32,000 nucleotides of DNA. Origin: Pyrodictium occultum (lineage in GTDB: Archaea; Thermoproteota; Thermoprotei_A; Sulfolobales; Pyrodictiaceae). Positions 9,856-21,272 of this stretch are shown piece after piece (position 1 is the first letter of the stretch; every line of letters starts with the position of its first letter). Location of the stretch: positions 1,110,001 through 1,142,000 of the forward strand of contig NZ_LNTB01000001.1 of assembly GCF_001462395.1 (NCBI RefSeq), in the 5' to 3' direction. Position numbers and translations under genes: made by a program. A model generated the notes under the pieces. It had not been told where the DNA came from and ran no database searches. It worked only from the letters and a program-made list of their open reading frames with translations.

Positions 9856-10122
9856 CTACGGAGCCAGGATCTCGGCCAGCTGGCCGATGTGCGTGGAGAG
9901 GTCCGCAGGGCTCTCCACTATAGGGGTCTCAAGGGCTAGCAGGGGCTTTGAGAGCAGGGGGAGCAGGGAGTCCACCCGCGTGGCGCCCCCCAGGGCCTCA
10001 TAGACCAGCCTCAGCTTGTCGCCGCTGTAGAGTAGAAGCCTCGAGGGCGCAGCGACAATGAAGAAGTCTACATGGCTTACCAGGCTCCTGTAGGGCGTAG
10101 CAGCGTTGTTGAACGACTCCAC
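9856..10122 (-). CDS. C-terminal part of the same P-loop NTPase (other reading frame)
   Basis: This frame reads ...SDILLVESFNNAATPY..., a Walker-B-like hydrophobic strand plus acidic residue, directly after ...ECRARLEAG of the upstream ORF. A single-base indel near 10138-10143 would join the two. Confidence 0.5.
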   Translation of the reverse strand: MESFNNAATPYRSLVSHVDFFIVAAPSRLLLYSGDKLRLVYEALGGATRVDSLLPLLSKPLLALETPIVESPADLSTHIGQLAEILAP

Positions 10123-10697
10123 CAGTAGTATGTCGCTCCGGCCTCAAGCCTGGCCCTGCACTCCTCCAGCAGTTCCTCAGCCTTAGGGCCTGCTAGCCAG
10201 TCTAGCAGCCAGCCAGGCTCAGAGGGCTCCGCCCCGAGGCGAGCTGCCAGCCTCTCAACCTCGCTCCGGAGAGTGCCGGTGAGCCTCGCCAGGCTATTGG
10301 GGAAGACATAGTGTCGTGCAGCGCCCCGCCCGCAGTCCTGGACCCGCGCCAACACCAGCATAGACCTTGTATCGGAGATTGCTGCGAGATACTGCGAGGG
10401 CCCCTTGAAGGCCAGGGGGTCAGGATAGGCCAGGGCCAGCGCCACAGGGTTTGAGACGCCGGGGTCGACGCCTTCGAGGTACCTCAGGTAGGTGTAGACA
10501 TCGTTCCCCAGGAGAAGCCCGCGATCATAGCTCGATCTAAGCGCGTGGGGCGAGCCCCAGAGGTTGTGGCCCGCCACGGGCTTGAATATTGCCACGCGGG
10601 GCCCCTTCTCAGCCAGAGCCCTGGCCAGGGCTACCACTGTCCAGGTCTTGCCGGAGTCGTGCTCAAGGAGCCCTGATACTAGCACCCTCAACACCAT
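10077..10697 (-). CDS. P-loop NTPase (BioD/CobQ/MinD-like fold), N-terminal part of a frame-interrupted gene
   Basis: Walker A-like VSGLLEHDSGKT near the N-terminus. The frame ends in a nonsense-looking tail (ATYYWWSRSTTLLRPTGAW), while the sequence continues sensibly in the frame of ORF 9856-10122. Confidence 0.55.
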   Translation of the reverse strand: MVLRVLVSGLLEHDSGKTWTVVALARALAEKGPRVAIFKPVAGHNLWGSPHALRSSYDRGLLLGNDVYTYLRYLEGVDPGVSNPVALALAYPDPLAFKGPSQYLAAISDTRSMLVLARVQDCGRGAARHYVFPNSLARLTGTLRSEVERLAARLGAEPSEPGWLLDWLAGPKAEELLEECRARLEAGATYYWWSRSTTLLRPTGAW

Positions 10698-10803
10698 AGC
10701 CCTTCAGCCCCGCCAGGGCTCTTGGAAGCCCCATGGTATTACTAGCCCGGGAGCTAGGCTTCATACCAGTTACCCACACATCCCTAAAGGGGCGGTACGC
10801 GGC

Positions 10804-11583
10804 ATGGATGAGCGCGGGCGAGAGCAACTGGAGTGGGTCAAAGAAGCTGCGAAGAGGCTGGCCCAGAGGCAGAGGGGAGGAGGGGGCCCGCGGAGCAAGC
10901 TCGTGGAGGCGATAGCTGTACTACTGCTAGCGAGGCCTATGAGGGCCGCCGAGATAGCCCAGGTGGTGGGCAAGCCTACCAGGTATGTTAGCAGCTACCT
11001 GAGCTACTGGAGGACGCGGGGCCTCTTCGACTACGAAAACGGGTTCTGGGTGCTCACCCCGCAGGGGGAGGATTACGCCAAGAGCATACTAGAGAGGGAG
11101 ATGAACAGCCGCATAGCCCAGTACGCCGCACTAGCAAGACAGATACTATCGGGTAGCAATACACAGGTTAGTCAGGCAGCAAACAACAATGGAGCGGGCG
11201 GCGCGGGCGAGCAGTCAGGCAGAGTCCAGCCGTTCATTGCCACTCATACCATTAATCTCGACAAGAAACAGCAGGAGAGGATCCTCGCAGCCTGCATACG
11301 GGCACTGCTCGAGGAGCTCGAGATAGGGGAGGATGAGCGCCAGGTACTGGAGACCCTGCTAGACCACTACCGCAGATGGGGGATGACCTACATGTACCTA
11401 GACCAGCTGGAGAAGGAGCTAGAGGCTGACAGGGTATGGCTTGTCGGAGTGCTCCGCGGCCTCCAGACGAAGGGCCTCGTGTACCTCTACAGCGACCGGA
11501 GACTCGGCATGAGGATAGGGCTATCAAAGAGGGTTAAGGGCGCCATTGCGGCCTGCACGCGCACAGCCCTGGGGAGGGTATAG
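10804..11583 (+). CDS. protein with two winged-helix domains; possible WhiP/Cdt1-like replication initiator or plasmid-type DNA-binding protein
   Basis: Start trimmed to ATG 10804, because upstream the ORF overlaps the P-loop gene. The N-terminal wH is LLLARPMRAAEIAQVVGKPTRYVSSYLSYWRTRGLFDYENGFWVLTPQG. The C-terminal wH is MTYMYLDQLEKELEADRVWLVGVLRGLQTKGLVYLYSD. It lies next to a long repeat-rich non-coding region. Confidence 0.5.
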   Translation: MDERGREQLEWVKEAAKRLAQRQRGGGGPRSKLVEAIAVLLLARPMRAAEIAQVVGKPTRYVSSYLSYWRTRGLFDYENGFWVLTPQGEDYAKSILEREMNSRIAQYAALARQILSGSNTQVSQAANNNGAGGAGEQSGRVQPFIATHTINLDKKQQERILAACIRALLEELEIGEDERQVLETLLDHYRRWGMTYMYLDQLEKELEADRVWLVGVLRGLQTKGLVYLYSDRRLGMRIGLSKRVKGAIAACTRTALGRV

Positions 11584-11926
11584 TCTCCACCCCTACGCTC
11601 CCCCTGGAACATGGGTATTCTTGCGCCAGGGATTACCGCCCCGGGACCGTGCGGTATACATGAATAATGGTAGAGGAGGACATCATGCTTTGATATACTC
11701 CTGGTTTATGTTACCCAGCATTACCTCTAATAGATGCCAATACATGGTTTATACAAACCAGCAAAACTCTACAAGATAAAATAGAGGCACCATAGATGCT
11801 AGGAGCAGGCTAGGCGCGGTCAACAGAGTTTACAGCATACATGAGTAGATTGCAGGAGCCAAGGCCGCTATTGATAAGATATGAGCCGATGCTCCGAGCG
11901 CCGCCCTGGCGCTCTCTACAGGCTCG

Positions 11927-12274
11927 CTATAGCAGGGAGTAGGGAGCCCCCCGGGGCAGGGTGCTCTGCCACCCCTGAGGCCTGGCCTGGTTGTAGTCGT
12001 GGTTAGTAGGGTCCCAGGCGTGCCGGCAGGCCTTGGAGCATTGCCGCCTGTTAGAGGCCGAACGCCCCCTCCGGTTGCGGAGCTTCATGCCCAGGCAGCT
12101 GAGGCAGCCGCCGCCCACTTCAAGCCACTTACACCCCACCTCTGTATGCCCGCTGACTTCGAGGGCGTGCTCTACATACTCGTAGATGAGGCTGGATACA
12201 GCCCTCTCACCCACCCGCAACTCAGCAGGGTCACGAGGGCGGGGAGGCCGGGGTCGAGGGTGGAGCGCTACCAC
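11927..12274 (-). CDS. possible small zinc-ribbon protein
   Basis: 115-aa ORF with a GTG start. It carries CLSC...(18 aa basic)...CSKACRHAW, a CxxC...CSxxCR Zn-ribbon-like signature. The N-terminal third is Pro/Arg-rich and dubious, and the overlapping + strand ORF looks non-coding. Confidence 0.3.
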   Translation of the reverse strand: MVALHPRPRPPRPRDPAELRVGERAVSSLIYEYVEHALEVSGHTEVGCKWLEVGGGCLSCLGMKLRNRRGRSASNRRQCSKACRHAWDPTNHDYNQARPQGWQSTLPRGAPYSLL

Positions 12275-12451
12275 ATCTGGCTCTCAACGCATCTCAACAG
12301 CCTGTGGAGGAGGCTGAACTGGGGGTCAAAGTATACGTCTACATAGAGATCCCCGAGGAAGCTGCAACGGGGAGGAGGGGGAGGCCTGTTGAGAGGGCTG
12401 GGCAGGAGGGTTAACAGGCGTTTGCCATCACCGGCGCCGCGGGTGATTCGT

Positions 12452-12580
12452 ACCGACTGGGTCGGTTAATCTTACTGACGGTGTCGGCACGATTCACCGG
12501 CACGGTCGGTGAATGCCCGTCAGACAAACGTGCGACACCCGTCGCATAGGCGTCAGACGCCCGTAAGACGCCGTCTTACG
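12452..12580. repeat. cluster of five different short palindromes/hairpins
   Basis: accgac-tgg-gtcggt (12452-12466); attcaccg-N7-cggtgaat (12492-12514); tgcgac-accc-gtcgca (12531-12546); ggcgtc-a-gacgcc (12549-12561); cgtaagacg-c-cgtcttacg (12562-12580). The motif a[ct][ga]cccgt recurs at about 20-23-bp spacing (12513, 12535, 12558, 12578). Confidence 0.8.
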
Positions 12581-12650
12581 CCCGTTATACGGTCGGAGTG
12601 TTGGGGTGGGCAAAAATGCCCACCGCCTTTCAATTCTATCTGTTAGATCC

Positions 12651-12714
12651 TTTTGAGCAGTTATGGGCAATTTTGCCCGCCCTGACCCCTGTAGGTGGTT
12701 CTGAATCGAGGCTT
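12651..12714. repeat. box pair copy 1: module A (39 bp, 12651-12689) then module B (25 bp, 12690-12714)
   Basis: A = ttttgagcagttatgggcaattttgcccgccctgacccc, containing the dyad gggcaa-tt-ttgccc and a C-string. B = tgtaggtggttctgaatcgaggctt. A related dyad, gggcaaaaatgccc, lies at 12608-12621. Confidence 0.85.
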
Positions 12715-12857
12715 GACTGCTTCCGCCCTGACGCCCCCGGGCCCTCGCCACCACGTCTACCAGCCTTGAGACGTCCCTCGAGGAGACCCCTCCCCCCTCT
12801 TTCACCACAGTTTCAGTGTCTTTTGGATTCTTCGCTCTCCATTGCATAGAATTGAAA

Positions 12858-12898
12858 GTTTAGCGCTAAACTTAGCGTGCTAAGGAATGCTAAGGAAT
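12858..12898. repeat. 14-bp perfect palindrome followed by a 2 x 10-bp tandem repeat
   Basis: The palindrome gtttagcgctaaac is at 12858-12871, and gctaaggaat occurs twice at 12879-12898. In addition, tttcaattctat (12628-12639) is the inverted complement of atagaattgaaa (12846-12857). Confidence 0.8.
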
Positions 12899-12942
12899 GT
12901 TGCAGAACCAGCGCCCTCCATGGCCTCCCACCGCCCCTAGGG

Positions 12943-12975
12943 GCTAGGGGGGCTTGTAGCTCCAGCAACTCCTCC
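12943..12975. repeat. direct repeat copy 1 (gctagggggg...tccagcaactcctcc)
   Basis: About 26/33 identity with 13603-13634, including the exact 10-mer tccagcaact. Confidence 0.6.
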
Positions 12976-12992
12976 TCGAGCGGCCGCTCGAG
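12975..12992. repeat. 18-bp perfect palindrome ctcgagcggccgctcgag
   Basis: The sequence is self-complementary over all 18 nt. Confidence 0.9.
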
Positions 12993-13034
12993 AGGCCTGC
13001 CTGGGGGCAGCGCTGGGCCTGGCCTGCGGGACTT

Positions 13035-13074
13035 GAAATTTAACATGAAATTTAACATCCCTGAAATTTAACAT
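13035..13074. repeat. 3 x 12-bp iteron gaaatttaacat inside an AT-rich core
   Basis: Exact copies at 13035-13046, 13047-13058 and 13063-13074. The surrounding 13031-13160 is the most AT-rich stretch of the window. Confidence 0.85.
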
Positions 13075-13173
13075 TATTAAATCAACAAGAATATCTTTTA
13101 GATACTCAAGAATCTCTTCATTGAGAATGAGCATCATGCCAAGGTATCTATTAGAAATCCTCTCGGCTATCAC

Positions 13174-13193
13174 GGTCTGAGGGGGTCTGAGGG
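13174..13193. repeat. 2 x 10-bp tandem repeat ggtctgaggg
   Basis: Exact tandem copies at 13174-13183 and 13184-13193. Confidence 0.85.
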
Positions 13194-13240
13194 GCTGGGC
13201 CGGGGCTCGGGGGCGCCGCGCTATAGTGTACGCCCCGGAG

Positions 13241-13260
13241 CATCTGGGAGCATCTGGGAG
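13241..13260. repeat. 2 x 10-bp tandem repeat catctgggag
   Basis: Exact tandem copies. They are followed by the palindrome gagtcc-g-ggactc (13261-13273) and by gtgtttg twice (13276-13282 and 13288-13294). Confidence 0.85.
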
Positions 13261-13602
13261 GAGTCCGGGACTCCGGTGTTTGTTAGCGTGTTTGCCTGTG
13301 CTTCTCTGTTTAACGTCCATGTTTATTGACTATCGTTCTAGGGTATGCGTCCGCCAGCCTCCCACATGTTAAGCGTGCGCAGCCGCCACCCGGGCCCGCC
13401 CACAGAAATTTCAGGGGGCAGAGAGCGGGCCTGCGACTCTACCCTAATAATATACAGTATACTGCTAGCTACGGGATCCCTCAAGGAGCTCCTCCAGCTC
13501 CCTAAGGCTTTCAGCGATACGCCTGGGCAACCCCCTTAACCGTTCAACACCACCCCGAGCGTTCAAAAACGCGGAGAGCGCGGGGCCCCATGCCTGCAGG
13601 AA

Positions 13603-13634
13603 GCTAGGGGGCTCCTGCTTCCAGCAACTTCTCC
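13603..13634. repeat. direct repeat copy 2 (gctaggggg...tccagcaacttctcc)
   Basis: See 12943-12975. It is followed by ttaaactattaaacaagga, which loosely resembles ttaacattattaaatcaacaagaa at 13067-13091. Confidence 0.6.
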
Positions 13635-13706
13635 CGGCTAAACAACGCGTTAAACTATTAAACAAGGATGGGGGGTGGGGCGGGGGAGGCTCTGCGGGAC
13701 GCGTCC

Positions 13707-13768
13707 CGGGGTCAGGGCGGGCAAAATTGCCCAAACTGCTCAAAAGCCTCGATTCAGAACCACCTACA
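13707..13768. repeat. box pair copy 2: inverted relative to copy 1 and with module order swapped (B then A when read on the minus strand)
   Basis: The reverse complement reads tgtaggtggttctgaatcgaggctt + ttgagcagtttgggcaattttgcccgccctgacccc. Module B matches 25/25. Module A differs only at ttatggg versus tttggg. Confidence 0.85.
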
Positions 13769-13848
13769 CGATCGAAATCACCGGTGAGTGCGGCCCGGGC
13801 GGTCAGCCGCCTGAGCGCCGAGGCGGGGCCCGGGGTCTTGCCGACCAG

Positions 13849-14538
13849 TTATGCCTGCTTTTTGCTTCTGTCTTCAAAATAGTAGCTACATATATCTCTG
13901 ACCGGGCATTCTGAGCATTTGGGGCTTCTTGCCGTGCACACCTTTCTCGCAAAGTCCAGCACTCCGTAGTTGAAGTCTCTGGCGCTCTCAGGGTCTTTGG
14001 GCACGAGCATTTTTGCGAAGGCCCAGAGCTTGGGGTCTGTGTGAGGCCTCTTCTTGGCCGACTTCACGCTGAAAACCCTCTCTATGACCCTTATCATGTT
14101 CCTGTCGAGGAGGGGTTCGGGCCTGTCACAGGCCCCCAGGAGCACCTCCGAGGCTATGTAGTCGCCCACTCCGGGTAGCTTCTTGAGCTTCTCCTTGTCG
14201 CATGGGATCCTCCCTCCAAGCTTCTCCTCGACGAGCCTGGCCAGCTCTATGAGGTGCCGAGTCCTCTGGTGCTCTATGCCCAGCGGGCGTATGACCTCCT
14301 TCACCTCATTCTCTTCAGCGTTCAGGAGCGCCTTGGGCGACGGGTACCTCTTAATGAACTCCTCGTAAACCTTGATCACCTGCTTTGTGGTTGTCTTTCT
14401 CAGGAGGAGCGCCGCGACGAGGATGGCCCATGCATTGCTAGTATTCCTCCAAGGCAGGCCCCTGTCCCCATGCACCCTGTACCACTCTATTATCCTGCGC
14501 CTGAACTCCCTGATCTTCCCGCTGTCGGCCAGGAGCAA
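13849..14538 (-). CDS. HhH-GPD DNA glycosylase with a [4Fe-4S] cluster loop; Mig-like (T/U:G mismatch) rather than EndoIII
   Basis: The HhH hairpin is LPGVGDYIASEV, with Tyr where EndoIII has its catalytic Lys (GVGRKTA). The catalytic-Asp region is LLDRNMIRVIERVF. The C-terminal cluster is CTARSPKCSECPVRDIC (Cx6Cx2Cx5C). Confidence 0.8.
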   Translation of the reverse strand: MLLADSGKIREFRRRIIEWYRVHGDRGLPWRNTSNAWAILVAALLLRKTTTKQVIKVYEEFIKRYPSPKALLNAEENEVKEVIRPLGIEHQRTRHLIELARLVEEKLGGRIPCDKEKLKKLPGVGDYIASEVLLGACDRPEPLLDRNMIRVIERVFSVKSAKKRPHTDPKLWAFAKMLVPKDPESARDFNYGVLDFARKVCTARSPKCSECPVRDICSYYFEDRSKKQA

Positions 14539-14539
14539 G

Positions 14540-14637
14540 GAGGCCCCCTTTGGCTCCCGCCTTGAGGCACTTATGCTCGGTGAATATATATGCTTTATAT
14601 ATGTTTTTTAATATGCTTCATTGGGGGGTGCGTGCTG
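14540..14637. promoter_or_regulatory. AT-rich divergent promoter region between the glycosylase and endonuclease genes
   Basis: The sequence gaatatatatgctttatatatgttttttaatatg offers TATA-like elements on both strands, 30-45 nt upstream of ATG 14638 (+) and of start 14538 (-). Confidence 0.4.
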
Positions 14638-15510
14638 ATGCAACGCTTCACAGTGTCTCTGTGCAGGCGCGCGGTCAAGAAGGCTGTGAGGAGGGGCGCC
14701 CTCCCAGACGAGTACCTGCTCTACGATGACCCTCGCCGCAAGGTCACACACGCAGACCTGCTGTGTGAGGGCACCGTGAGGGGGCGTGATTGGGAGTCCT
14801 TCTCCAGCGTAGATGAGTGGATTGAGTGGCTGGGTTGGAGTACTGTTCTGCTGGATGAAAGGGACTACCTCACAGCCGCCGTTCACGCCCTCGATCTGGC
14901 CCCGAGGATCCCGGCGACGGATTACGGGACGACGAGGCAGAGGGATCTGGGACAGCTCTTGACAGACGCGATAAGGGGCTTCCTGGGCGAGATAGCCCTC
15001 GCCAAGTGGCTAGGCGAGAGGTTCGAAGTCAGAGTCGTGCTCGACTACAGGAAGGGCCCCCTGCCAGAATTCCTGCCCTCAGACATAAGGCTGGTGAACG
15101 GTAGGCCTCCCAGGCTCAATGTGAGCATAAAGACAACTAAGCTGAGAGGCATATGGCTGGACATACCTTACAGCCAGATAGAGAACAGCCACGTCTTCGT
15201 CCTGGTCAGGGTCGGGGTGTCGAGGGAGCACTTCCTCGCATTCCTCAAGGAGATAAGCGCCATTAAAGACAAGATCCTGTCGAAGGCGAGGGAGCTGGGG
15301 ATAATATCTGAGGATGATCTGGCCAGCATTTGGGATGCAATCCCAGAGTTTACCAAGATACCGGCCTGCATCGCCGGTTTCTTCGACAAGAGAGAGTATG
15401 AGGATGCAGTTAAGGAGAGGACGAGCATACTCCTGGCTGACGGGGAGGAGAAGAAGAGGTTTGTTGTCAACAAGTTTGTGGGCTACTGGCACCCCGAGCA
15501 GGACAAGTAG
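14638..15510 (+). CDS. candidate type II restriction endonuclease (PD-(D/E)xK-like signature)
   Basis: 290 aa from ATG 14638; the ORF-track start at 14590 lies inside the TATA-like tract. GFLGEIALAKWL...LPSDIRLVNGRPPRLNVSIKTTK fits E...D-x13-SxK. The gene sits between the Mig-like glycosylase and the C5 methyltransferase. No family recognised. Confidence 0.45.
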   Translation: MQRFTVSLCRRAVKKAVRRGALPDEYLLYDDPRRKVTHADLLCEGTVRGRDWESFSSVDEWIEWLGWSTVLLDERDYLTAAVHALDLAPRIPATDYGTTRQRDLGQLLTDAIRGFLGEIALAKWLGERFEVRVVLDYRKGPLPEFLPSDIRLVNGRPPRLNVSIKTTKLRGIWLDIPYSQIENSHVFVLVRVGVSREHFLAFLKEISAIKDKILSKARELGIISEDDLASIWDAIPEFTKIPACIAGFFDKREYEDAVKERTSILLADGEEKKRFVVNKFVGYWHPEQDK

Positions 15511-15549
15511 GATAGGCGAAGCCCTGGCCGAGATACTGGACGAAACAGA

Positions 15550-15897
15550 TTAAAGGTCTCGAATGAGCCCCTCCCAGTCCTCCCTCCTGCGCCTGAGAGC
15601 CCCCGAACTCACGATGAAGTGGAGAGTCCTCGAGAAGTTCCCAATGCCCTCAAACTCTATTTTGACGTCATTCGAGACTTTGAAGCCCTGACTCCTGAGG
15701 GTCTCGATGAGCCTCTCCCTGTTCGCCCCTGCCGCCATGGAAGAGGAATGTGTCTGGGAATGTCTGCAACCTCGCCCTTTCTCTCAGCGTTAGCATTGCT
15801 CTGTCTCGATCATAGTGGTAGCCGTGGGTCCCCCCGCCGCCGTAGGCGACCACAGTGTAGGCTGGCTTCAGCGGGTGGATCCTCCTGTAGACCAGGC
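15550..15897 (-). pseudogene. C-terminal methyltransferase segments in shifted frames (motifs IX-X region)
   Basis: A second frame (about 15960 down to 15668) reads IPPGENHEFVRGT...HPLKPAYTVVAYGGGG...RMLTLRERARLQTFPDTFLFHGG, the conserved C5-MTase C-terminal block. The original frame then resumes at 15738-15550 (RERLIETLRSQGF...GIGN...). The apparent shifts lie at G/C runs near 15957-15961 and 15725-15735. Confidence 0.6.
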
Positions 15898-17040
15898 TTA
15901 TGCCCCTCCCCTCAACCTCCCACCGCGTCCCCCTGACGAACTCGTGGTTCTCACCCGGGGGATTCTCTTCATCCTCTCAACCACCACGGGATCCTCCCTC
16001 GGGGGCTCTGTGGTGGAGTCGGGGAGCATGAGCCTGTCCACAGGCCTGCCCAGGTAGCCCAGCTCCCTCAGAACGGCCTCATGTTGCCTCAGGGCCTCCT
16101 CGATCTCCTCCGGGCTGGCCCTCTCCACTCCGTTGACTCTCAGGTAGTCCTCTACTGCGCTGAAAGTGAGCCTGTCCCACACTCTCCTCTTCCACTCCAG
16201 GGCGCGCTGAGTGCCCAGCTCGCGCCAGAGGCCCTCCCACTTCCGCATCACCTCCCTGTACTTGTCGTCGAGCCTGTCCAGCCGGTCGCCTTCGAAGACC
16301 TCGATGGGTGTGAGAGGGTACTTGCGGAAGAGCCAGCCTCTCCCGCGCAGGGCGGCCTCCAGCCTGCCCCTCAGCCTCCAAAGCGCGGCTGTGCTCCCCC
16401 GGAGCAGGTCTTTCCTCACGCCCACTATGATCAGCCGCTCCCTCTTCTGGGGGACTCCGAGGCTGGAGAAGTGGACGATGCCGCTGAAGATTATCTCGTA
16501 GCCCTCAGCTCCGTCCGCGCCGTCCGCCTTTATGAGCCTCCTCACCTCATCCCAGCGGAGCTTCAGGTTGGCGAAGTCGTCCAGGATGACCTTGTAGGCG
16601 AGCCCCTTATTGGCGCTGACGAGGCCGGGCACGTTCTCGAACACGAAGGCCTTGGGCTGGAGGGTGGCGAGAGCCCTCACGAAGTGGGCGTACAGCCTCC
16701 CCCTCCTGACCTCTATCCCCCTCCTGTCCCAGTCGGGGCCGCGGACAATGGAGAAGTCCTGGCATGGGGGGCCACCCGCCACCACGTCAACCCCCGCATC
16801 AGAGAGCCCGGCAAAGTCCACCCGGGCCACGTCGCAGGCCAGGATGACGCCCGGCCGAGCCTGGACTTCCAGCTCCCCACCGCACAGCTCCAGCTTGAGC
16901 CCCAGGTTCCTCGCGTACGTCATCGCCGCGGGGACCCGCAACTCGTTAGCGAACACAATCCTGAACCTCCCCGTCTGGACGAGGCCCAGGTCAAGCCCCC
17001 CAGCACCCGAGAATAGCGATGCGACCCTGTACACCTTCAC
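15898..17040 (-). CDS. DNA (cytosine-5)-methyltransferase, N-terminal and central part (motifs I-VIII plus the variable region)
   Basis: Motif I LFSGAGGLDLG, motif IV GGPPCQDFS, motif VI FVFENVPGL, motif VIII QKRERLIIVG. The GTG start overlaps the stop of the upstream RHH gene (GTGA). Confidence 0.85.
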   Translation of the reverse strand: MKVYRVASLFSGAGGLDLGLVQTGRFRIVFANELRVPAAMTYARNLGLKLELCGGELEVQARPGVILACDVARVDFAGLSDAGVDVVAGGPPCQDFSIVRGPDWDRRGIEVRRGRLYAHFVRALATLQPKAFVFENVPGLVSANKGLAYKVILDDFANLKLRWDEVRRLIKADGADGAEGYEIIFSGIVHFSSLGVPQKRERLIIVGVRKDLLRGSTAALWRLRGRLEAALRGRGWLFRKYPLTPIEVFEGDRLDRLDDKYREVMRKWEGLWRELGTQRALEWKRRVWDRLTFSAVEDYLRVNGVERASPEEIEEALRQHEAVLRELGYLGRPVDRLMLPDSTTEPPREDPVVVERMKRIPRVRTTSSSGGRGGRLRGGA

Positions 17041-17237
17041 ACTTCACCACCTCCCATCTCCCTCTTAACCTTAGACGCCACAATCGACTTCTCCGACAGC
17101 CACGACAGCACTATATTCCTGACAAGCTCAGCATCGTCGCTACCCATCACGCCACGAAGCATCTCTATAAGCTCCCACTGCTCCCGCGTAAAGGTGACCT
17201 GAACCCTCTTAACCCTCCCCCTCCTCTGCTCGCTCAT
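17037..17237 (-). CDS. ribbon-helix-helix (CopG/Arc/MetJ-like) DNA-binding protein, likely regulator of the methyltransferase operon
   Basis: 66 aa from ATG 17237. The segment RVKRVQVTFTREQWELIEMLRGVMGSDDAELVRNIVLSWL gives a beta strand plus two helices. It has a 4-nt overlap with the MTase start. Confidence 0.65.
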   Translation of the reverse strand: MSEQRRGRVKRVQVTFTREQWELIEMLRGVMGSDDAELVRNIVLSWLSEKSIVASKVKREMGGGEV

Positions 17238-17535
17238 AGCACACCAAACTCCACAGAAACACACTACGCACACACGGCTAATAAAGGTTCATTCACCCCG
17301 CCCAGGCCAGCCCTCTTAAATTCCTCGGGGCCGTGAATCTGAGTCATGTCGCGGACTGGCACGAGATATTATTTTGAGCGCGATCCTCTGACTCTTTTCC
17401 TGCCGTGCTTCTATCAGGTATAATGTTGAAAAGCCCTAAAAAGACGCTTTGCTCTCTGTTATTGGCTCAAAAACGGTGTTGCACCCGCGGAAAATGGTGT
17501 CAAAGACTGCAAGAAGCTCCAATGCAGGCCATTGC

Positions 17536-17829
17536 TTAGTTTTGCACGGTAAGTGGAATATGCTTAGTAGCTTCTGAGGGTTTAGCGTGAAGAAATCCGC
17601 GAGAGGAGGAGTAATGTAGGACTGTTATCGGCGTTGCTTGGAGCTCTGCTAGCTCCTGCTGTCTGAGCGAGATCTCCGCCTGAATCCATATAGTGACCAG
17701 CTGGAAGTATATGAGCGTGGCGATGAGTCCGTCATGTAAGCCTAGGCTGTATAATATTAGGGAGGGTATCAGTGCCAGCAGGAGAATTGCGAAGCCCAAG
17801 TCCTTTAAGGGCACGCGCGGCACGGGCAA
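17536..17829 (-). CDS. small membrane protein (hypothetical)
   Basis: 97-aa ORF with two hydrophobic helices (LGFAILLLALIPSLILYSL and LIATLIYFQLVTIWI) in a lower-GC stretch of the island. Confidence 0.35.
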   Translation of the reverse strand: MPVPRVPLKDLGFAILLLALIPSLILYSLGLHDGLIATLIYFQLVTIWIQAEISLRQQELAELQATPITVLHYSSSRGFLHAKPSEATKHIPLTVQN

Positions 17830-17866
17830 GACAGGCCCCCACAGCGTTCCCGATGTTGCCAGGCGG

Positions 17867-18712
17867 TTAAGTGAGGCCCACCTCAGCCAGGTGCTCCAGG
17901 TATTTGGGGTATGCCTGGTCTGCCTCCCCTAGGAGGTCTTCGTACCTCGCCTCGCTCACCCTCAGCTCCCCAAACCTGCTCTGCATGAACCTCGCGGCCT
18001 CCCTCCCCACAGTTTTAACCATGAGCCTCCATGCAACCTTCCTCATGTACTTGGGCAGTACTAGGCCGTGCCTCACCGCGTACCTTCTGGGCTGGTGCCT
18101 GCCAACCCTCCTAGGGGCTACCCGCATCAGCAGCTCAAGGGTCTCCCTAGAGAAGTATATCCACTCGCACTGCTTGGCCGAGCCCCTGAGGCCCATGTAG
18201 TACCTGCAGAACCCTTTATCGCCGGGGCACACCAGCCTCTCGGTTGTGACCCCAACTCCCGGTATCTCCACGGTCCCGCCAGGATCCCAGGACTCAATCA
18301 TCCTCAGCACGTGCGTGTACCTGGCCCCTGACTCGATCATGACCCTGTAGACGGTGTAGTAGACCGGGTGGTTCTCCCCCAGGAGTTCTAGGGTCCTCCT
18401 AACGTCCTCGAGGCTTATGGGGTACGGCTTGACGTCCAGCCTGTACCCCCGGGAGGGCACCGCCTCCGTTAGCCACCCGAATGCTTCGGGGCTGATCCTC
18501 CTCCTGTAGTAGAGGTATTGGACGTAGTGCCTGAATACGTTCCGGAGCCACCTATTCGGGTGGCTCACAACATAGTCGACCAGGTCCTCTGAGAGCTCCC
18601 TGCCCTCCAGGTATTTCGTGAACAGGCTCCTGTAGTACTTGAGTGTGGCGGGATCCCTGACCCTCCTGCGCCCCTTACGCTCCCTCAGGATGCTCTCGAA
18701 GTCGCGTCCCAC
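17867..18712 (-). CDS. archaeal tyrosine recombinase/integrase (SSV/pNOB8 superfamily), catalytic part
   Basis: ESGARYTHVL supplies the first catalytic Arg, LPKYMRKVAWRLM is the K/RxxR block that replaces HxxR in SSV-type integrases, and AARFMQSRFGELRVSEARYEDL supplies the nucleophilic Tyr. Confidence 0.7.
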   Translation of the reverse strand: MGRDFESILRERKGRRRVRDPATLKYYRSLFTKYLEGRELSEDLVDYVVSHPNRWLRNVFRHYVQYLYYRRRISPEAFGWLTEAVPSRGYRLDVKPYPISLEDVRRTLELLGENHPVYYTVYRVMIESGARYTHVLRMIESWDPGGTVEIPGVGVTTERLVCPGDKGFCRYYMGLRGSAKQCEWIYFSRETLELLMRVAPRRVGRHQPRRYAVRHGLVLPKYMRKVAWRLMVKTVGREAARFMQSRFGELRVSEARYEDLLGEADQAYPKYLEHLAEVGLT

Positions 18713-18897
18713 CTCAATGTGACGCCGGAGAAGCTGAGGCCGGGCATCCTCCTCAAGCCGTCCCTGAACTCCCTGACAGCGAAGCTGAGAATGGCCCTCT
18801 TCAGGTACTCATCCCTTGAGGCCGGGGCCGTGATTTTGAGTGCGAGTCCGTAGTCAACGCTACCATCCTCCCCGACAAGCCCCAGGGGCTTATCCAT
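18685..18897 (-). CDS. probable integrase N-terminal segment in a different frame
   Basis: 70-aa ORF (MDKPLGLVGEDGSVDYGLALKI...SFSGVTLRW) that runs into the integrase ORF. One extra G in the run at about 18707-18710 (minus-strand aggtggga) would give ...VTLRWGRDFESIL... as one 351-aa protein. Confidence 0.5.
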   Translation of the reverse strand: MDKPLGLVGEDGSVDYGLALKITAPASRDEYLKRAILSFAVREFRDGLRRMPGLSFSGVTLRWDATSRAS

Positions 18898-18984
18898 GCC
18901 CGGGGATCCACCGTATAGGCTGTTGGAGGGGGTATTACAGTCATATAAAAGGTGCTCTCTGGCCCCTGTCCTGGAGCGGTGTAG

Positions 18985-19056
18985 CCCTCGGCGGTGATGA
19001 GGCTGATTTGAGCCGAGTAGTGTGGATGTGGAGTGGAGACCTCGCTGAGCCGAGGG
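18985..19056 (+). ncRNA. candidate C/D-box sRNA (2'-O-methylation guide)
   Basis: An 8-bp terminal stem (ccctcggc at 18985-18992 with gccgaggg at 19049-19056) brackets C box gtgatga (18994-19000) and D box ctga (19045-19048). The internal spacing is canonical: 12-nt guide ggctgatttgag, D'-like ccga (19013-16), 9-nt spacer, C'-like atgtgga (19026-32), 12-nt guide gtggagacctcg. It is intergenic. Confidence 0.5.
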
Positions 19057-19059
19057 ACG

Positions 19060-19857
19060 CTATATTATCTCCTCCATCTTTTCCTTGATTACCTTCTCTG
19101 CATCCCCTCTCGAGACCTCTGTGAAGCCCATGCTCCGGATTGCCTCTACTATCTTCTCCGGCTGCTTTTCCAGGTCGCTGACGGGCATGTCTACTGTGGT
19201 TTCGGCACGGTAGGCTTTCCTGCCCGGGACGAGGATTACTAGGATGCGTGTTCGCCCGTCATCCTCCTTCATAACAGCTAGGCCTACGTTCTCTCCGGCA
19301 GGGTCCTTCAGTATGGCCAGGTGCTCTCCGCTCCTAGTGCTCCCGTATACTACTGCCTCGCTAACCTGTACCGGCGGCTGGGCTGCGGGCCTGGCGGCGC
19401 GCCTAGCGGCTTCCCGTATCTGGCGCTCCACCTCCGCCTCCGTTGTAGTTGTCCAGGCTCTCTCCTCCTCGGTCTCTGGCCTGGCTAGTACGTGCTCAGC
19501 CTTCTCTATCACCTCTAGCACGGCTTTCCGTACCTCCTCGTCGGGTATCCTCCTGAAGGCCTCCATCTGGAGCGTGTCGAGCTTCCACTCTATGTCTCCA
19601 TCCCTTACCTCGTACTCTACGCGTATCCGCACAGCATCACCCTTGTCTATATGGAGCTTGTTGACGAGTATCTCGAAGAGGAGGCGGTTCAGCTCGCCGG
19701 CGCGGCGGGCCACCTGCTTTGAGTCTATCTTGCCGCTCTTGATATCGTTCCTAAGCTGGGCGAACAACACCCTGCGCAGCTTGTCGGCGTAGGCACCGGC
19801 TATGACAAGGCCTGTTGAGAGCTGGGGCATACGTTCTACCCCCCTCTTACTCGTCAC
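19060..19857 (-). CDS. conserved archaeal hypothetical protein
   Basis: 265-aa ORF with normal composition. The N-terminal LSTGLVIAGAYADKLRRVLFAQL block resembles a conserved archaeal family of unknown function, but I cannot name the family with confidence. Confidence 0.55.
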   Translation of the reverse strand: MTSKRGVERMPQLSTGLVIAGAYADKLRRVLFAQLRNDIKSGKIDSKQVARRAGELNRLLFEILVNKLHIDKGDAVRIRVEYEVRDGDIEWKLDTLQMEAFRRIPDEEVRKAVLEVIEKAEHVLARPETEEERAWTTTTEAEVERQIREAARRAARPAAQPPVQVSEAVVYGSTRSGEHLAILKDPAGENVGLAVMKEDDGRTRILVILVPGRKAYRAETTVDMPVSDLEKQPEKIVEAIRSMGFTEVSRGDAEKVIKEKMEEII

Positions 19858-21165: not shown

Positions 21166-21272
21166 CGATGCTCCTCTCCACGCGCCCCGGGAAGGGGGGG
21201 CAAACAGTCCCTGAGGAGCTATGGGTGGGAAGCCTTGCAAAAGGGGGTTAAGGCTCTGTGGGCGCTAGGGCC

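What the first reader, a model, noticed from the sequence alone, without database searches (positions are those of the whole stretch)
13780..18960. Integrase-bearing island carrying an m5C restriction-modification module with its own deamination-repair glycosylase
The five consecutive genes are:
- a Mig-like HhH-GPD glycosylase (-);
- a PD-(D/E)xK-like candidate endonuclease (+);
- a C5 cytosine methyltransferase (-), translationally coupled to a ribbon-helix-helix gene (-);
- after a small membrane ORF, an SSV/pNOB8-type tyrosine integrase (-).

Conserved core genes resume on the right (Nre, aRF1).

Established knowledge: 5-methylcytosine deaminates rapidly to thymine at high temperature, and the Methanothermobacter plasmid pFV1 pairs the GGCC m5C system MthTI with the T:G glycosylase Mig.Mth.

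Inference: this is the same three-part logic (cut, protect, repair the cost of protection), here mobilised by an integrase in a crenarchaeal chromosome and placed next to an origin-like region. No att direct repeats and no tRNA target were detectable, so the integration mechanism and the boundaries remain open.
Basis: partly seen in the sequence, partly recalled or inferred. Interest (0 to 1): 0.65.

Follow-up and report, generated by a model that had tools for sequence, protein, structure and literature searches.

The report
Broken ApeKI-type restriction island with repair glycosylase
This is a horizontally acquired gene island in a Pyrodictium-like archaeon carrying a relative of the known ApeKI restriction-methylation system with its own T:G-mismatch repair enzyme, but the cutting enzyme, the methylase and the integrase are all broken, so it is a decaying relic of a known kind of system.

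Summary
In at least 8 related Pyrodictiaceae genomes, ThermoDBP-RP and a conserved 339-aa gene lie 0.6-0.9 kb apart; here they are 7.5 kb apart.

The cargo is not new. It is a four-gene cassette: a small RHH-like ORF, an m5C methyltransferase, a restriction endonuclease and a Mig-type glycosylase. It is 65-74% identical and colinear with the ApeKI (GCWGC) system of Aeropyrum pernix K1, which lies in the APSV1 provirus. The same cassette occurs in all 8 other archaeal loci examined.

- A 214-bp inversion (15509-15722) plus a 46-bp deletion across the overlapping 3' ends of R and M moves the last 56 REase codons to the wrong strand and removes methyltransferase motif X.
- The methyltransferase also has a -1 frameshift.
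- The integrase lacks about 80 N-terminal codons and is frameshifted.
- Only the glycosylase is intact.

A sister strain (99.5-99.8% identical) has a different lesion at the same junction, a 164-bp deletion.

The island holds 1 GCWGC site where about 15 are expected; the host flanks are not depleted.

Verdict: a new, decayed member of a known kind, of moderate interest.

The parts
13849..14538 (-). Mig-type HhH-GPD / Fe-S DNA glycosylase, 229 aa. It appears intact and is the only intact enzyme of the cassette.
   Evidence: Pfam HhH-GPD and EndIII_4Fe-2S. PADLOC PDLC03398 'Type II nicking endonuclease', E=1e-42. PDB 1KEA (Mig.MthI), E=3.6e-41, residues 13-221; LPGVGDY aligns with LPGVGKY and LLDRN with MVDAN. 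70% identity over 223 aa to APSV1 orf40, which sources name thymine-DNA glycosylase.
14638..15510 (+). 5' part of the restriction endonuclease gene: codons 1-290, ending in a TAG created at the inversion junction. One Lys codon is also deleted at 15448 relative to the sister strain.
   Evidence: PADLOC PDLC03411 REase_II, E=1.9e-129, but only profile positions 5-291 of 350. 66% identity to APSV1 orf39 residues 6-291. 167 homologues of 334-369 aa. Junction sequence.
15509..15722 (.). 214-bp inverted segment spanning the former overlapping 3' ends of the convergent R and M genes. A 46-bp deletion lies at its right junction.
   Evidence: tblastn places REase residues 297-350 on the - strand at 15711-15553. 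Re-inverting the segment, adding back the 46 nt retained in L001 and adding 1 G restores a 347-aa REase and a 469-aa MTase.
15550..15720 (-). Displaced 3' fragment of the REase gene: the last 56 codons, RERLIETLRSQGFKVSNDVKIEFEGIGNFSRTLHFIVSSGALRRRREDWEGLIRDL*.
   Evidence: The translation is. It matches the conserved C-termini of P0002, P0012 and P0018. tblastn.
15509..15553 (+). Displaced last 14 codons plus the stop of the methyltransferase gene (RIGEALAEILDETD*).
   Evidence: It aligns with the M.ApeKI C-terminus ...RIAEALAEVLD.
15723..17040 (-). m5C methyltransferase pseudogene body. Codons 1-361 run 17040->15958, followed by a -1 frameshift at the G5 run at 15956. Codons 362-440, which include motif IX, run 15961->15722. 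Motif X (QIGEAVPP) is deleted.
   Evidence: Pfam PF00145 on both pieces. PADLOC PDLC03223 positions 1-363 of 469. tblastn with M.ApeKI gives two frames. L001 and L002 have G6 at this run. The reconstruction is 74% identical to M.ApeKI over 467 aa.
17037..17273 (-). Small ORF translationally coupled to the methyltransferase by a 4-nt GTGA overlap. It is probably about 66 aa, starting at Met13. It is a likely RHH-type regulator.
   Evidence: The overlap is. 68% identity to APSV1 orf37. The same 4-nt overlap occurs in L041, L044 and APSV1. Weak ParG (RHH) matches: E=0.15 for the APSV1 homologue and E=0.47 for the window ORF. A low-confidence AF2 model shows beta-alpha-alpha for residues 20-62.
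17536..17829 (-). 97-aa ORF with an N-terminal hydrophobic segment and no known relatives.
   Evidence: No family hits. Found only in the sister strain.
17867..18897 (-). Tyrosine integrase pseudogene. It retains family residues ~80-430 in two frames (70-aa ORF 18685-18897 and 281-aa ORF 17867-18712), with a frameshift near 18709. About 80 N-terminal codons are missing.
   Evidence: Pfam PF16795. Homologues are 420-450 aa and 72% identical. tblastn shows two frames and no N-terminal match anywhere in the window. The same state is present in L001.
13380..19160 (.). Stretch almost free of GCWGC, with a single site at 18130. It coincides with the island and its immediate edges.
   Evidence: 151 sites in the window (observed/expected 0.96), but 1 here against about 15 expected. 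GCAGC/GCTGC is the most under-represented 5-mer of the island.
18889..18900 (.). Approximate right boundary of the insertion. Integrase homology starts here and DNA similarity to relatives resumes.
   Evidence: blastn against the intergenic gaps of relatives. tblastn with integrases. Translation.

Best explanation
The segment is the decayed remnant of an integrative element. It delivered an ApeKI-family Type II R-M cassette into the intergenic slot between ThermoDBP-RP and a conserved 339-aa gene of a Pyrodictiaceae chromosome.

**How the intact cassette works (inferred from homologues)**
- A small RHH-like protein is translated together with an m5C methyltransferase that protects GCWGC.
- A convergent endonuclease, whose stop codon overlaps the methyltransferase's, cuts unmethylated sites.
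- A divergently transcribed Mig-type glycosylase removes T (or U) opposite G. These mismatches arise when 5-methylcytosine (or C) deaminates at high temperature. Base-excision repair then restores G:C.

**State in this genome (shown)**
- The integrase lost its N-terminus and acquired a frameshift before the two sampled strains diverged.
- Later, a microhomology-type rearrangement hit the overlapping 3' ends of R and M: a 214-bp inversion with a 46-bp deletion. It cut 56 codons off the endonuclease and removed motif X and the tail of the methyltransferase.
- The methyltransferase also carries a -1 frameshift.
- Only the glycosylase remains intact. It may now serve as an ordinary deamination-repair enzyme (inference).
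For: **Insertion**
- Synteny in at least 8 relatives.
- DNA conserved with relatives stops at ~11766 and resumes at ~18889.

**Cassette identity**
- PADLOC REBASE-derived profiles match all three enzymes.
- 65-74% identity and colinearity with APSV1 orf37-40. This cluster includes M.ApeKI and a protein named thymine-DNA glycosylase.
- M.ApeKI is an experimentally shown m5C GCWGC enzyme (PMC8557920).

**Linkage of the glycosylase**
- The same four-gene order is found in all 8 other loci examined, spanning Aeropyrum, Pyrobaculum, and Freyarchaeota and Nitrososphaeria MAGs.

**Glycosylase type**
- 1KEA (Mig.MthI) is the top hit, with the Mig-type Tyr and the catalytic Asp aligned.

**Breakage**
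-.
- Undoing three lesions restores full-length proteins covering profile positions 5-349 of 350 and 1-467 of 469.

**Lesions are real rather than assembly noise**
- Two independent assemblies of a sister strain also carry a lesion at the same junction, though a different one: a 164-bp deletion between 9-bp repeats.
- There are no single-base indels in 12.4 kb of flanking, mostly coding DNA.
- Seven of the 8 single-base indels in the island-bearing block fall in non-coding DNA or in the methyltransferase.

**Integrase decay**
-. Intact relatives lie about 70 nt from tRNA genes.

**Foreign origin and GCWGC specificity**
- GCWGC is purged from the island but not from the host flanks.
- The same purge is seen in several homologous cassette loci.
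Against: - No reads were available, so the inversion and the frameshift rest on a single assembly of this strain. That assembly also has one frameshift, at 10137, in a 280-aa gene that is intact in the sister strain.
- GCWGC specificity is inferred from homology and site depletion, not measured. The bona fide ApeKI cassette in APSV1 and the closest intact relative L044 are not strongly depleted.
- The left boundary is undefined, lying anywhere between 11767 and 13848. No att repeat was found.
- The closest relative with the empty site shares only 75% Nre identity, so the timing of the insertion is coarse.
- The endonuclease assignment rests on a REBASE-derived profile and on gene position. There is no fold match in the PDB.
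Confidence: 0.82

Rival explanations
1. The system is intact and active in the organism, and the inversion and frameshift are assembly or sequencing artefacts of the window's genome record.
For: - The window carries another frameshift, at 10137, in a gene that is intact in the sister strain.
- The MTase frameshift lies in a homopolymer (G5 against G6).
- Only one assembly of this exact strain is available.
Against: - A 214-bp inversion with a 46-bp deletion and short junction homologies is not a typical consensus error.
- Two independent assemblies of the sister strain also have a broken R/M junction, from a different lesion.
- There are no single-base indels in 12.4 kb of flanking coding DNA between the assemblies.
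- Indels cluster in non-coding or pseudogene DNA, as expected for real mutations.
- The REase also has an in-frame codon loss.
Confidence: 0.07
2. The 214-bp segment is a programmed invertible switch (phase variation) that toggles R and M on and off together, possibly catalysed by the neighbouring tyrosine recombinase.
For: - The inversion sits exactly on the shared 3' ends of both genes, and a recombinase gene lies 2 kb away.
- The two strains differ at this junction.
Against: - There are no inverted repeats at the segment ends.
- The 46-bp loss of motif X and the frameshift mean that flipping back would not restore the methyltransferase.
- The recombinase is truncated and frameshifted.
- The sister strain has a deletion, not the opposite orientation.
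- The intact homologues examined (L041, L042, L044 and APSV1) all show one orientation.
Confidence: 0.03
3. The segment is not an acquired island but ancestral DNA that the sampled relatives lost, and the glycosylase is a housekeeping MutY/EndoIII paralogue lying next to an R-M pair by chance.
For: - GC content of the segment (0.54-0.66) is not clearly different from the flanks.
- There are no att repeats and no tRNA.
- The nearest genome with the empty site is fairly distant (75% Nre identity).
Against: - The empty site is shared by at least 8 diverse Pyrodictiaceae, and the Nre-orf339 neighbourhood extends to Acidilobaceae.
- The segment carries an integrase remnant.
- GCWGC content differs about 15-fold from the flanks.
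- The glycosylase is adjacent to the same REase and MTase in 8 of 8 other loci from distant lineages.
Confidence: 0.04

Closest known systems
ApeKI restriction-modification system of Aeropyrum pernix K1, with its adjacent thymine-DNA glycosylase, carried in provirus APSV1 (orf37-orf40 of HE580238)
   Same: - The same four genes in the same order and orientation: a small ORF overlapping M by 4 nt, R convergent on M with overlapping stops, and the glycosylase divergent from R.
- Identities: 68% (small ORF), 74% (reconstructed M, 467 aa, one gap), 66% (R) and 70% (glycosylase).
- In both cases the cassette sits on an integrated mobile element in a crenarchaeal chromosome.
   Different: - Here R and M are disrupted and the carrier is a ~5-7 kb remnant with an unrelated, decayed integrase. 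APSV1 is a 38-kb spindle-shaped provirus with a 521-aa SSV-type integrase, and no other APSV1 gene is found in the window.
- The specificity here is inferred, not measured.
- The host is a Pyrodictiaceae member.
MthTI (GGCC, m5C) plus Mig.MthI on Methanothermobacter plasmid pFV1
   Same: - The same logic: an m5C R-M pair linked to an HhH-GPD/Fe-S T:G mismatch glycosylase.
- Mig.MthI (PDB 1KEA) is the closest solved relative of the glycosylase.
   Different: The R and M proteins are of a different family and recognise a different sequence. The carrier is a plasmid rather than an integrated element, and the host is a euryarchaeon. That this pairing occurs on pFV1 is from established knowledge; it was not re-tested here.
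Dcm-Vsr (very-short-patch repair) of E. coli and other bacterial m5C R-M systems with a linked 'V' nicking enzyme
   Same: It is a functional analogue: repair of T:G mismatches created by deamination at the methylated site, encoded next to the methyltransferase. PADLOC files the glycosylase under its 'Type II nicking endonuclease' profile.
   Different: Vsr is an endonuclease that nicks 5' of the T. Here the enzyme is a base-excision glycosylase of the MutY/Mig family.
tRNA-targeting archaeal tyrosine integrases of Pfam PF16795 (pNOB8-like, remaining intact after integration)
   Same: The catalytic domain is 72% identical to 428-447-aa family members. Those members sit at the edge of accessory gene blocks, about 70 nt from tRNA genes.
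   Different: The window copy lacks about 80 N-terminal codons, is frameshifted and has no tRNA or att repeat nearby.

Membership tests
ApeKI-family Type II R-M (REBASE-derived PADLOC profiles PDLC03411 / PDLC03223) | Full-length endonuclease homologue (~334-369 aa) including the conserved C-terminal IEFEGIGxFSxTLHF...SSG block | tested here: not met
   The encoded ORF covers profile positions 5-291 of 350. The C-terminal 56 codons are on the other strand. Coverage reaches 5-349 of 350 only after in-silico re-inversion.
ApeKI-family Type II R-M (REBASE-derived PADLOC profiles PDLC03411 / PDLC03223) | C5-methyltransferase with the full motif set: I (FxGxG), IV (PCQ), VI (ENV), VIII (QxRxR), IX and X | tested here: not met
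   Motifs I-VIII are in the 380-aa ORF. Motif IX is in another frame after a -1 frameshift. Motif X (QIGEAVPP) is deleted. The reconstruction gives 469 aa, 74% identical to M.ApeKI.
ApeKI-family Type II R-M (REBASE-derived PADLOC profiles PDLC03411 / PDLC03223) | Convergent R and M genes with overlapping stop codons, and a small upstream ORF overlapping the M start by 4 nt | tested here: met
   The 4-nt overlap of the small ORF and M is present. The overlapping R/M stops are preserved inside the inverted segment, as in L044, L041 and APSV1.
ApeKI-family Type II R-M (REBASE-derived PADLOC profiles PDLC03411 / PDLC03223) | Recognition of GCWGC with m5C methylation | tested here: inconclusive
   Support is indirect only: 74% identity to M.ApeKI, including the variable region, and GCWGC being the most depleted 5-mer of the island and of several homologous loci. 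APSV1 and L044 are not clearly depleted. Enrichment of strain SNPs at GCWGC was not reproduced.
Mig / MutY-type HhH-GPD mismatch glycosylase | HhH-GPD domain with helix-hairpin-helix, a catalytic Asp, and Tyr (not Lys) after the hairpin | tested here: met
   Pfam PF00730 and PF00633. In the alignment to 1KEA, LPGVGDY aligns with LPGVGKY and LLDRN with MVDAN.
Mig / MutY-type HhH-GPD mismatch glycosylase | C-terminal Cx6Cx2Cx5C [4Fe-4S] loop | tested here: met
   Pfam PF10576, E=7.9e-8. The sequence CTARSPKCSECPVRDIC is in the translation.
Mig / MutY-type HhH-GPD mismatch glycosylase | T:G and U:G glycosylase activity | not testable with these tools
   Needs an enzyme assay. Sources name the A. 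pernix orthologue thymine-DNA glycosylase.
Archaeal tyrosine integrase (PF16795), tRNA-targeting type | Catalytic C-terminal domain | tested here: met
   PF16795, E=1.6e-20, profile positions 4-160 of 161. 72% identity to family members.
Archaeal tyrosine integrase (PF16795), tRNA-targeting type | Complete ~430-aa protein in one frame, with its N-terminal region | tested here: not met
   Only residues ~80-430 are present, in two frames. No N-terminal match was found in the window.
Archaeal tyrosine integrase (PF16795), tRNA-targeting type | Adjacent tRNA target and flanking att direct repeats | tested here: not met
   No tRNA in the window or in the empty sites of relatives. No credible flanking repeat. 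Intact relatives lie about 70 nt from tRNA-Arg or tRNA-Gly.
Ribbon-helix-helix regulator | N-terminal beta-strand followed by two helices, with similarity to RHH families | tested here: inconclusive
   No Pfam hit at E<0.01. There are weak ParG hits: E=0.15 for the APSV1 homologue and E=0.47 to PDB 1P94. The single-sequence AF2 model has pLDDT 64, with beta(20-28)-alpha-alpha.
PD-(D/E)xK nuclease fold | alpha-beta-beta-beta-alpha-beta core with an E...PD...(D/E/S)xK active site | tested here: inconclusive
   The AF2 model of homologue P0002 has pLDDT 90. Invariant E122, D153 (in PSD) and S167-x-K169 lie on a helix and on consecutive strands. There is no PDB fold or sequence match. BFVD matches to small phage 'restriction endonuclease' proteins have E=7e-5 to 1e-3 and target TM 0.5-0.7.
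Genomic island | Present/absent polymorphism at a conserved syntenic site, plus a mobility gene and a compositional signature | tested here: met
   The slot is empty in at least 8 relatives. An integrase remnant is present. GCWGC is purged relative to the flanks. GC content itself is not distinctive.

The most novel reading that the evidence does not exclude
m5C restriction-modification cassettes may be short-lived, costly passengers in archaea growing near or above 100 C.
- This one arrived from a donor lineage already purged of GCWGC.
- It outlived its own integrase.
- It was then knocked out independently in two sister strains by different rearrangements at the same overlapping R/M 3' junction, a single-hit way to silence both genes.
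- The Mig-type glycosylase was kept and co-opted for general deamination repair.
Probability: 0.2. Interest if true: 0.6.

Novelty: new member of a known kind. Interest (0 to 1): 0.4.

Why it matters
- **An open question in the literature.** Two recent papers on M.ApeKI and on archaeal R-M systems (PMC8557920, PMC11033074) note that m5C should be unsustainable at 90-95 C. They say the host 'presumably' has an unknown repair system. The conserved four-gene cassette documented here puts a Mig-type T:G glycosylase immediately next to the ApeKI-family R and M genes in every locus examined. This points to a concrete, testable answer.
- **A snapshot of R-M loss.** The window and its sister strain show two different lesions at the shared 3' ends of R and M, in strains 99.5-99.8% identical. 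This bears on how 'addictive' modules are shed.
- **Limits.** The locus is an inactive homologue of a commercial enzyme system, so it offers no new enzyme or mechanism.

Tried and rejected
1. **m5C-driven hypermutation at GCWGC between the sister strains.** In the island-bearing block, 4 of 21 SNPs hit GCWGC G/C positions. An independent 12.4-kb block showed 2 of 50 against 1.85 expected. Rejected as unsupported.
2. **Deamination decay as the cause of the island's GCWGC loss.** The products GCWGT/ACWGC are not in excess: 25 against about 27 expected.
3. **An SSV-type split integrase with an Int(N) fragment at the other end of the island.** No N-terminal match was found anywhere in the window. 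Full-length relatives are intact in chromosomes.
4. **att direct repeats and a tRNA target.** None were found.
5. **Rfam families in the window.** None reached gathering score. The only sub-threshold hit is a C/D-box match just outside the island.
6. **The 2-kb non-coding stretch 11767-13848.**
   - No similarity in the phage or plasmid collections.
   - No exact match of its repeat in metagenome contigs.
   - No similarity to APSV1 or to the cassette flanks.
7. **Fold and sequence matches of the endonuclease to solved structures.** None were found.
8. **Viral carriage as a general rule.** Only APSV1 and one other IMG/VR contig encode a relative.
9. **Retrieving the sister-strain locus through aRF1 and P0250.** Neither was on record.

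Full report
**What is in the sequence**

- The 229-aa ORF at 13849-14538(-) has an HhH-GPD domain, a helix-hairpin-helix and the EndoIII-type Fe-S loop. Its closest solved structure is the plasmid pFV1 mismatch glycosylase Mig.MthI (1KEA, E=3.6e-41, nearly end to end). The Mig-type Tyr (LPGVGDY against LPGVGKY) and the catalytic Asp are aligned.
- The ORF at 14590/14638-15510(+) has no Pfam or NCBIfam family. It matches the REBASE-derived PADLOC profile 'Type II restriction enzyme' PDLC03411 at E=1.9e-129.
- The ORF at 15898-17040(-) is a C5 cytosine methyltransferase.
- The stop of a 78-aa ORF (17037-17273) overlaps the methyltransferase start by 4 nt.
- A 97-aa hydrophobic ORF and a PF16795 tyrosine integrase ORF follow.
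- ThermoDBP-RP, Nre and aRF1 come next.
- No tRNA gene is predicted.

**The module is a relative of ApeKI, and the triad is a conserved cassette**

The endonuclease candidate has 167 homologues of 334-369 aa. I read the neighbourhoods of seven of them, plus the deposited APSV1 genome. The seven were Aeropyrum pernix, Pyrobaculum neutrophilum, a P. aerophilum-type contig, Freyarchaeota and Nitrososphaeria MAGs, and two unnamed contigs.

Every locus shows the same four genes in the same arrangement:
- a small ORF of 66-95 aa whose end abuts or overlaps the start of a 462-471-aa methyltransferase (by 4 nt in L041, L044 and APSV1);
- the endonuclease, convergent on the methyltransferase with the two 3' ends abutting or overlapping;
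- a 223-234-aa HhH-GPD glycosylase, divergent from the endonuclease.

The A. pernix proteins cluster with BAA79854 'DNA (cytosine-5-)-methyltransferase M.ApeKI' and BAA79857 'thymine-DNA glycosylase'. All of them are also annotated as orf37-40 of the provirus Aeropyrum pernix spindle-shaped virus 1. M.ApeKI has been shown experimentally to make m5C in GCWGC (PMC8557920).

The window's genes are 66-70% identical to the APSV1 genes. So the 'cut, protect, repair' combination on a mobile element in a crenarchaeal chromosome already exists in a well-known system. However, that paper and a 2024 review only speculate that A. pernix 'presumably' has some repair mechanism.

**The module is broken in this genome**

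*Endonuclease.* The ORF covers only profile positions 5-291 of 350. Full-length homologues end in ...YRERI/LxxxLRxQG...IEFEGIGNFSRTLHFIVSSGALRRRREDWExLxxxL. Exactly that peptide is encoded on the minus strand at 15550-15720.

*Methyltransferase.* M.ApeKI residues 4-362 map to 17031-15958. Residues 362-449 map to 15961-15710 in another frame. The last 14 codons lie on the plus strand at 15509-15553.

*Comparison with other assemblies.* Two assemblies of a sister strain (L001 and L002, 99.7-99.8% identical) and an intact relative (L044) show what happened:
- A 214-bp segment (15509-15722) containing the overlapping 3' ends of both genes is inverted.
- 46 bp encoding motif X (IRAQIGEAVPPLAAK) are lost at its right junction.
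- A G6 run is G5 at 15956, which shifts the frame.
- One Lys codon is missing from the endonuclease.

*Reconstruction.* Reversing the inversion, restoring the 46 bp and adding one G yields a 347-aa endonuclease covering profile positions 5-349 of 350. It also yields a 469-aa methyltransferase covering 1-467 of 469, which is 74% identical to M.ApeKI with a single gap.

*Sister strain.* It carries a different lesion at the same place. A 164-bp deletion between two 9-bp repeats (CAGGGCTTC) removes the endonuclease's last 43 codons. It also has its own methyltransferase frameshift, in the PCQ-motif G run.

**Are the lesions real?**

I could not see reads. Several observations argue against artefact.
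- The junctions show short homologies and a concomitant deletion.
- The sister strain's junction is supported by two runs.
- In 12.4 kb of flanking, mostly coding DNA the two strains differ by 50 substitutions, one 6-nt in-frame indel and no single-base indels.
- In the island-bearing 14.7 kb, 7 of the 8 single-base indels lie in non-coding DNA or in the methyltransferase.
- The exception is a frameshift at 10137 in a 280-aa gene that is intact in the sister strain. This leaves a small chance of assembly error.

**Island status and boundaries**

A scan with Nre found 38 related loci. In at least 8 Pyrodictiaceae relatives the order is aRF1 - Nre - ThermoDBP-RP - 0.58-0.96 kb - a conserved 339-aa gene. 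In the window the last two are 7.5 kb apart.

DNA similarity to the relatives' intergenic region ends at ~11766 and resumes at ~18889. That is exactly where integrase homology begins. A conserved C/D-box-like element lies at 18990-19050, just outside the island.

The left boundary is not defined. The 2 kb between 11767 and 13848 has no intact gene, no relatives anywhere I searched and a normal GCWGC density.

**The integrase**

Family members are 420-450 aa. In the window, residues ~80-150 and ~150-430 are in two frames, and the first ~80 residues are absent from the whole window. The sister strain shares this state, so it predates the R/M lesions.

Two full-length relatives lie intact in chromosomes, about 70 nt downstream of tRNA-Arg and tRNA-Gly, at the edge of accessory gene blocks. 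The family is therefore of the type that stays intact on integration. The window copy is simply degraded, with its original att region gone.

**A compositional signature**

GCWGC occurs 151 times in the window, with observed/expected 0.96 by a Markov model. Only one site, at 18130, falls between 13380 and 19160, where about 15 are expected.
- GCAGC/GCTGC is the most under-represented 5-mer of the island, both against its own Markov model and against the rest of the window.
- Control motifs are not depleted.
- Deamination products are not in excess.
- The same depletion is seen in cassette and flanks of the Pyrobaculum loci. It is also seen in the cassettes of the Freyarchaeota and Nitrososphaeria loci, whose flanks are too short to judge. 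It is mild in A. pernix/APSV1 and absent in L043 and L044.

I read this as support for two points. GCWGC is the family's target, and the island evolved elsewhere, in a GCWGC-avoiding background, entering this host too recently for the host to show any effect. This is inference.

**A hypothesis that failed**

Four of the 21 substitutions between the strains in the island-bearing block create or destroy GCWGC. That suggested recent m5C hypermutability. An independent block gave 2 of 50 against 1.85 expected, so I do not claim it.

**Fold labels**
- *Endonuclease.* An AlphaFold model of the intact homologue P0002 is confident (pLDDT 90). It has invariant E122, PSD153 and S167-x-K169 on a helix and consecutive strands, which is compatible with a PD-(D/E)xK core. 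It has no PDB match by fold or sequence. It gives only modest matches to small phage 'restriction endonuclease' models.
- *Small ORF.* It shows beta-alpha-alpha in a low-confidence model and weak ParG similarity.
- Both labels remain plausible but unproven.

**Verdict**

But this is a decayed member of the ApeKI-type cassette family, not an active or novel system.
- *Worth keeping:* the evidence that the Mig-type glycosylase is an integral, conserved fourth gene of this R-M family, and the two independent junction lesions in sister strains.
- *Known or ordinary:* the enzymes, their logic and their carriage on integrated elements.

Noticed in passing
window 12650-12714 and 13708-13768: Two adjacent blocks are each perfectly or near-perfectly inverted 1.0 kb away: X of 40 nt with an internal GGGCAA..TTGCCC hairpin, and Y of 25 nt. 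The order is X-Y ... X'-Y', not the Y'-X' of a simple inverted repeat. The right copy ends 80 nt from the glycosylase stop. No explanation was found, and there is no exact match in metagenome contigs.
   Followed up: partly
window 12415-12640: A dense cluster of palindromes and hairpins, including an ~85-nt imperfect hairpin. Folding z-scores are -5.5 and -6.2 on the two strands. There is no Rfam match.
   Followed up: partly
window 13035-13074, 12878-12898 and 13238-13262: Three copies of GAAATTTAACAT lie in an AT-rich patch. There are also short tandem duplications (GCTAAGGAATG x2, GGAGCATCTG x2) in the gene-free 2-kb stretch left of the island. I did not test origin function, and no Orc1/Cdc6 gene turned up among the ORFs of the window that I annotated.
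   Followed up: no
window 18990-19050 (+): A C/D-box sRNA-like element matches Rfam sR2 at 28.5 bits, below the gathering score, E=0.003. It is conserved at the DNA level in the empty sites of several Pyrodictiaceae relatives and lies immediately outside the island's right edge.
   Followed up: partly
window 9856-10697 (-), position 10137: A gene that is a single 280-aa ORF in the sister strain is split here into 88-aa and 206-aa ORFs by a 1-nt difference. This is either a real pseudogene or the one sign of assembly error.
   Followed up: partly
window 13057-13107 (-): A short stretch inside a 127-aa ORF weakly resembles residues ~120-140 of the integrase family (41-47% over 17 aa, E 0.3-2.6). 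It may be a trace of a second, older integrase copy, or chance.
   Followed up: no
window 10564-11583 (+) and the adjacent intergenic gap in relatives (e.g. L008 11980-12924): The conserved 339-aa neighbour has only weak winged-helix hits (TrmB, HTH_23). It keeps its place next to Nre/ThermoDBP-RP as far out as Acidilobaceae. The gap beside it is 0.6-0.9 kb and AT-rich in several relatives (GC 0.37-0.47).
   Followed up: no
window 4636-32000 against L001, L053 and L054: Substitutions between the near-identical strains are almost all transitions: 19 of 21 and 47 of 50. There is also a 6-nt in-frame G-run indel at 21192, in the Nre gene. A third sample (SRR5453782) is closer to the sister strain than to the window.
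   Followed up: partly
L042 (Pyrobaculum neutrophilum) and L046 (P. aerophilum-type contig): GCWGC is 4- to 9-fold under-represented in the host DNA flanking the cassette as well as in the cassette: 7 against ~29 and 2 against ~18. This suggests genome-wide avoidance or erosion in long-term hosts of this R-M family.
   Followed up: partly
L049 11354-20152: A full-length relative of the integrase borders a block containing BrxL-like genes (PF20442, PF13337). This integrase family therefore also carries other defence cargo next to tRNA-Arg.
   Followed up: no
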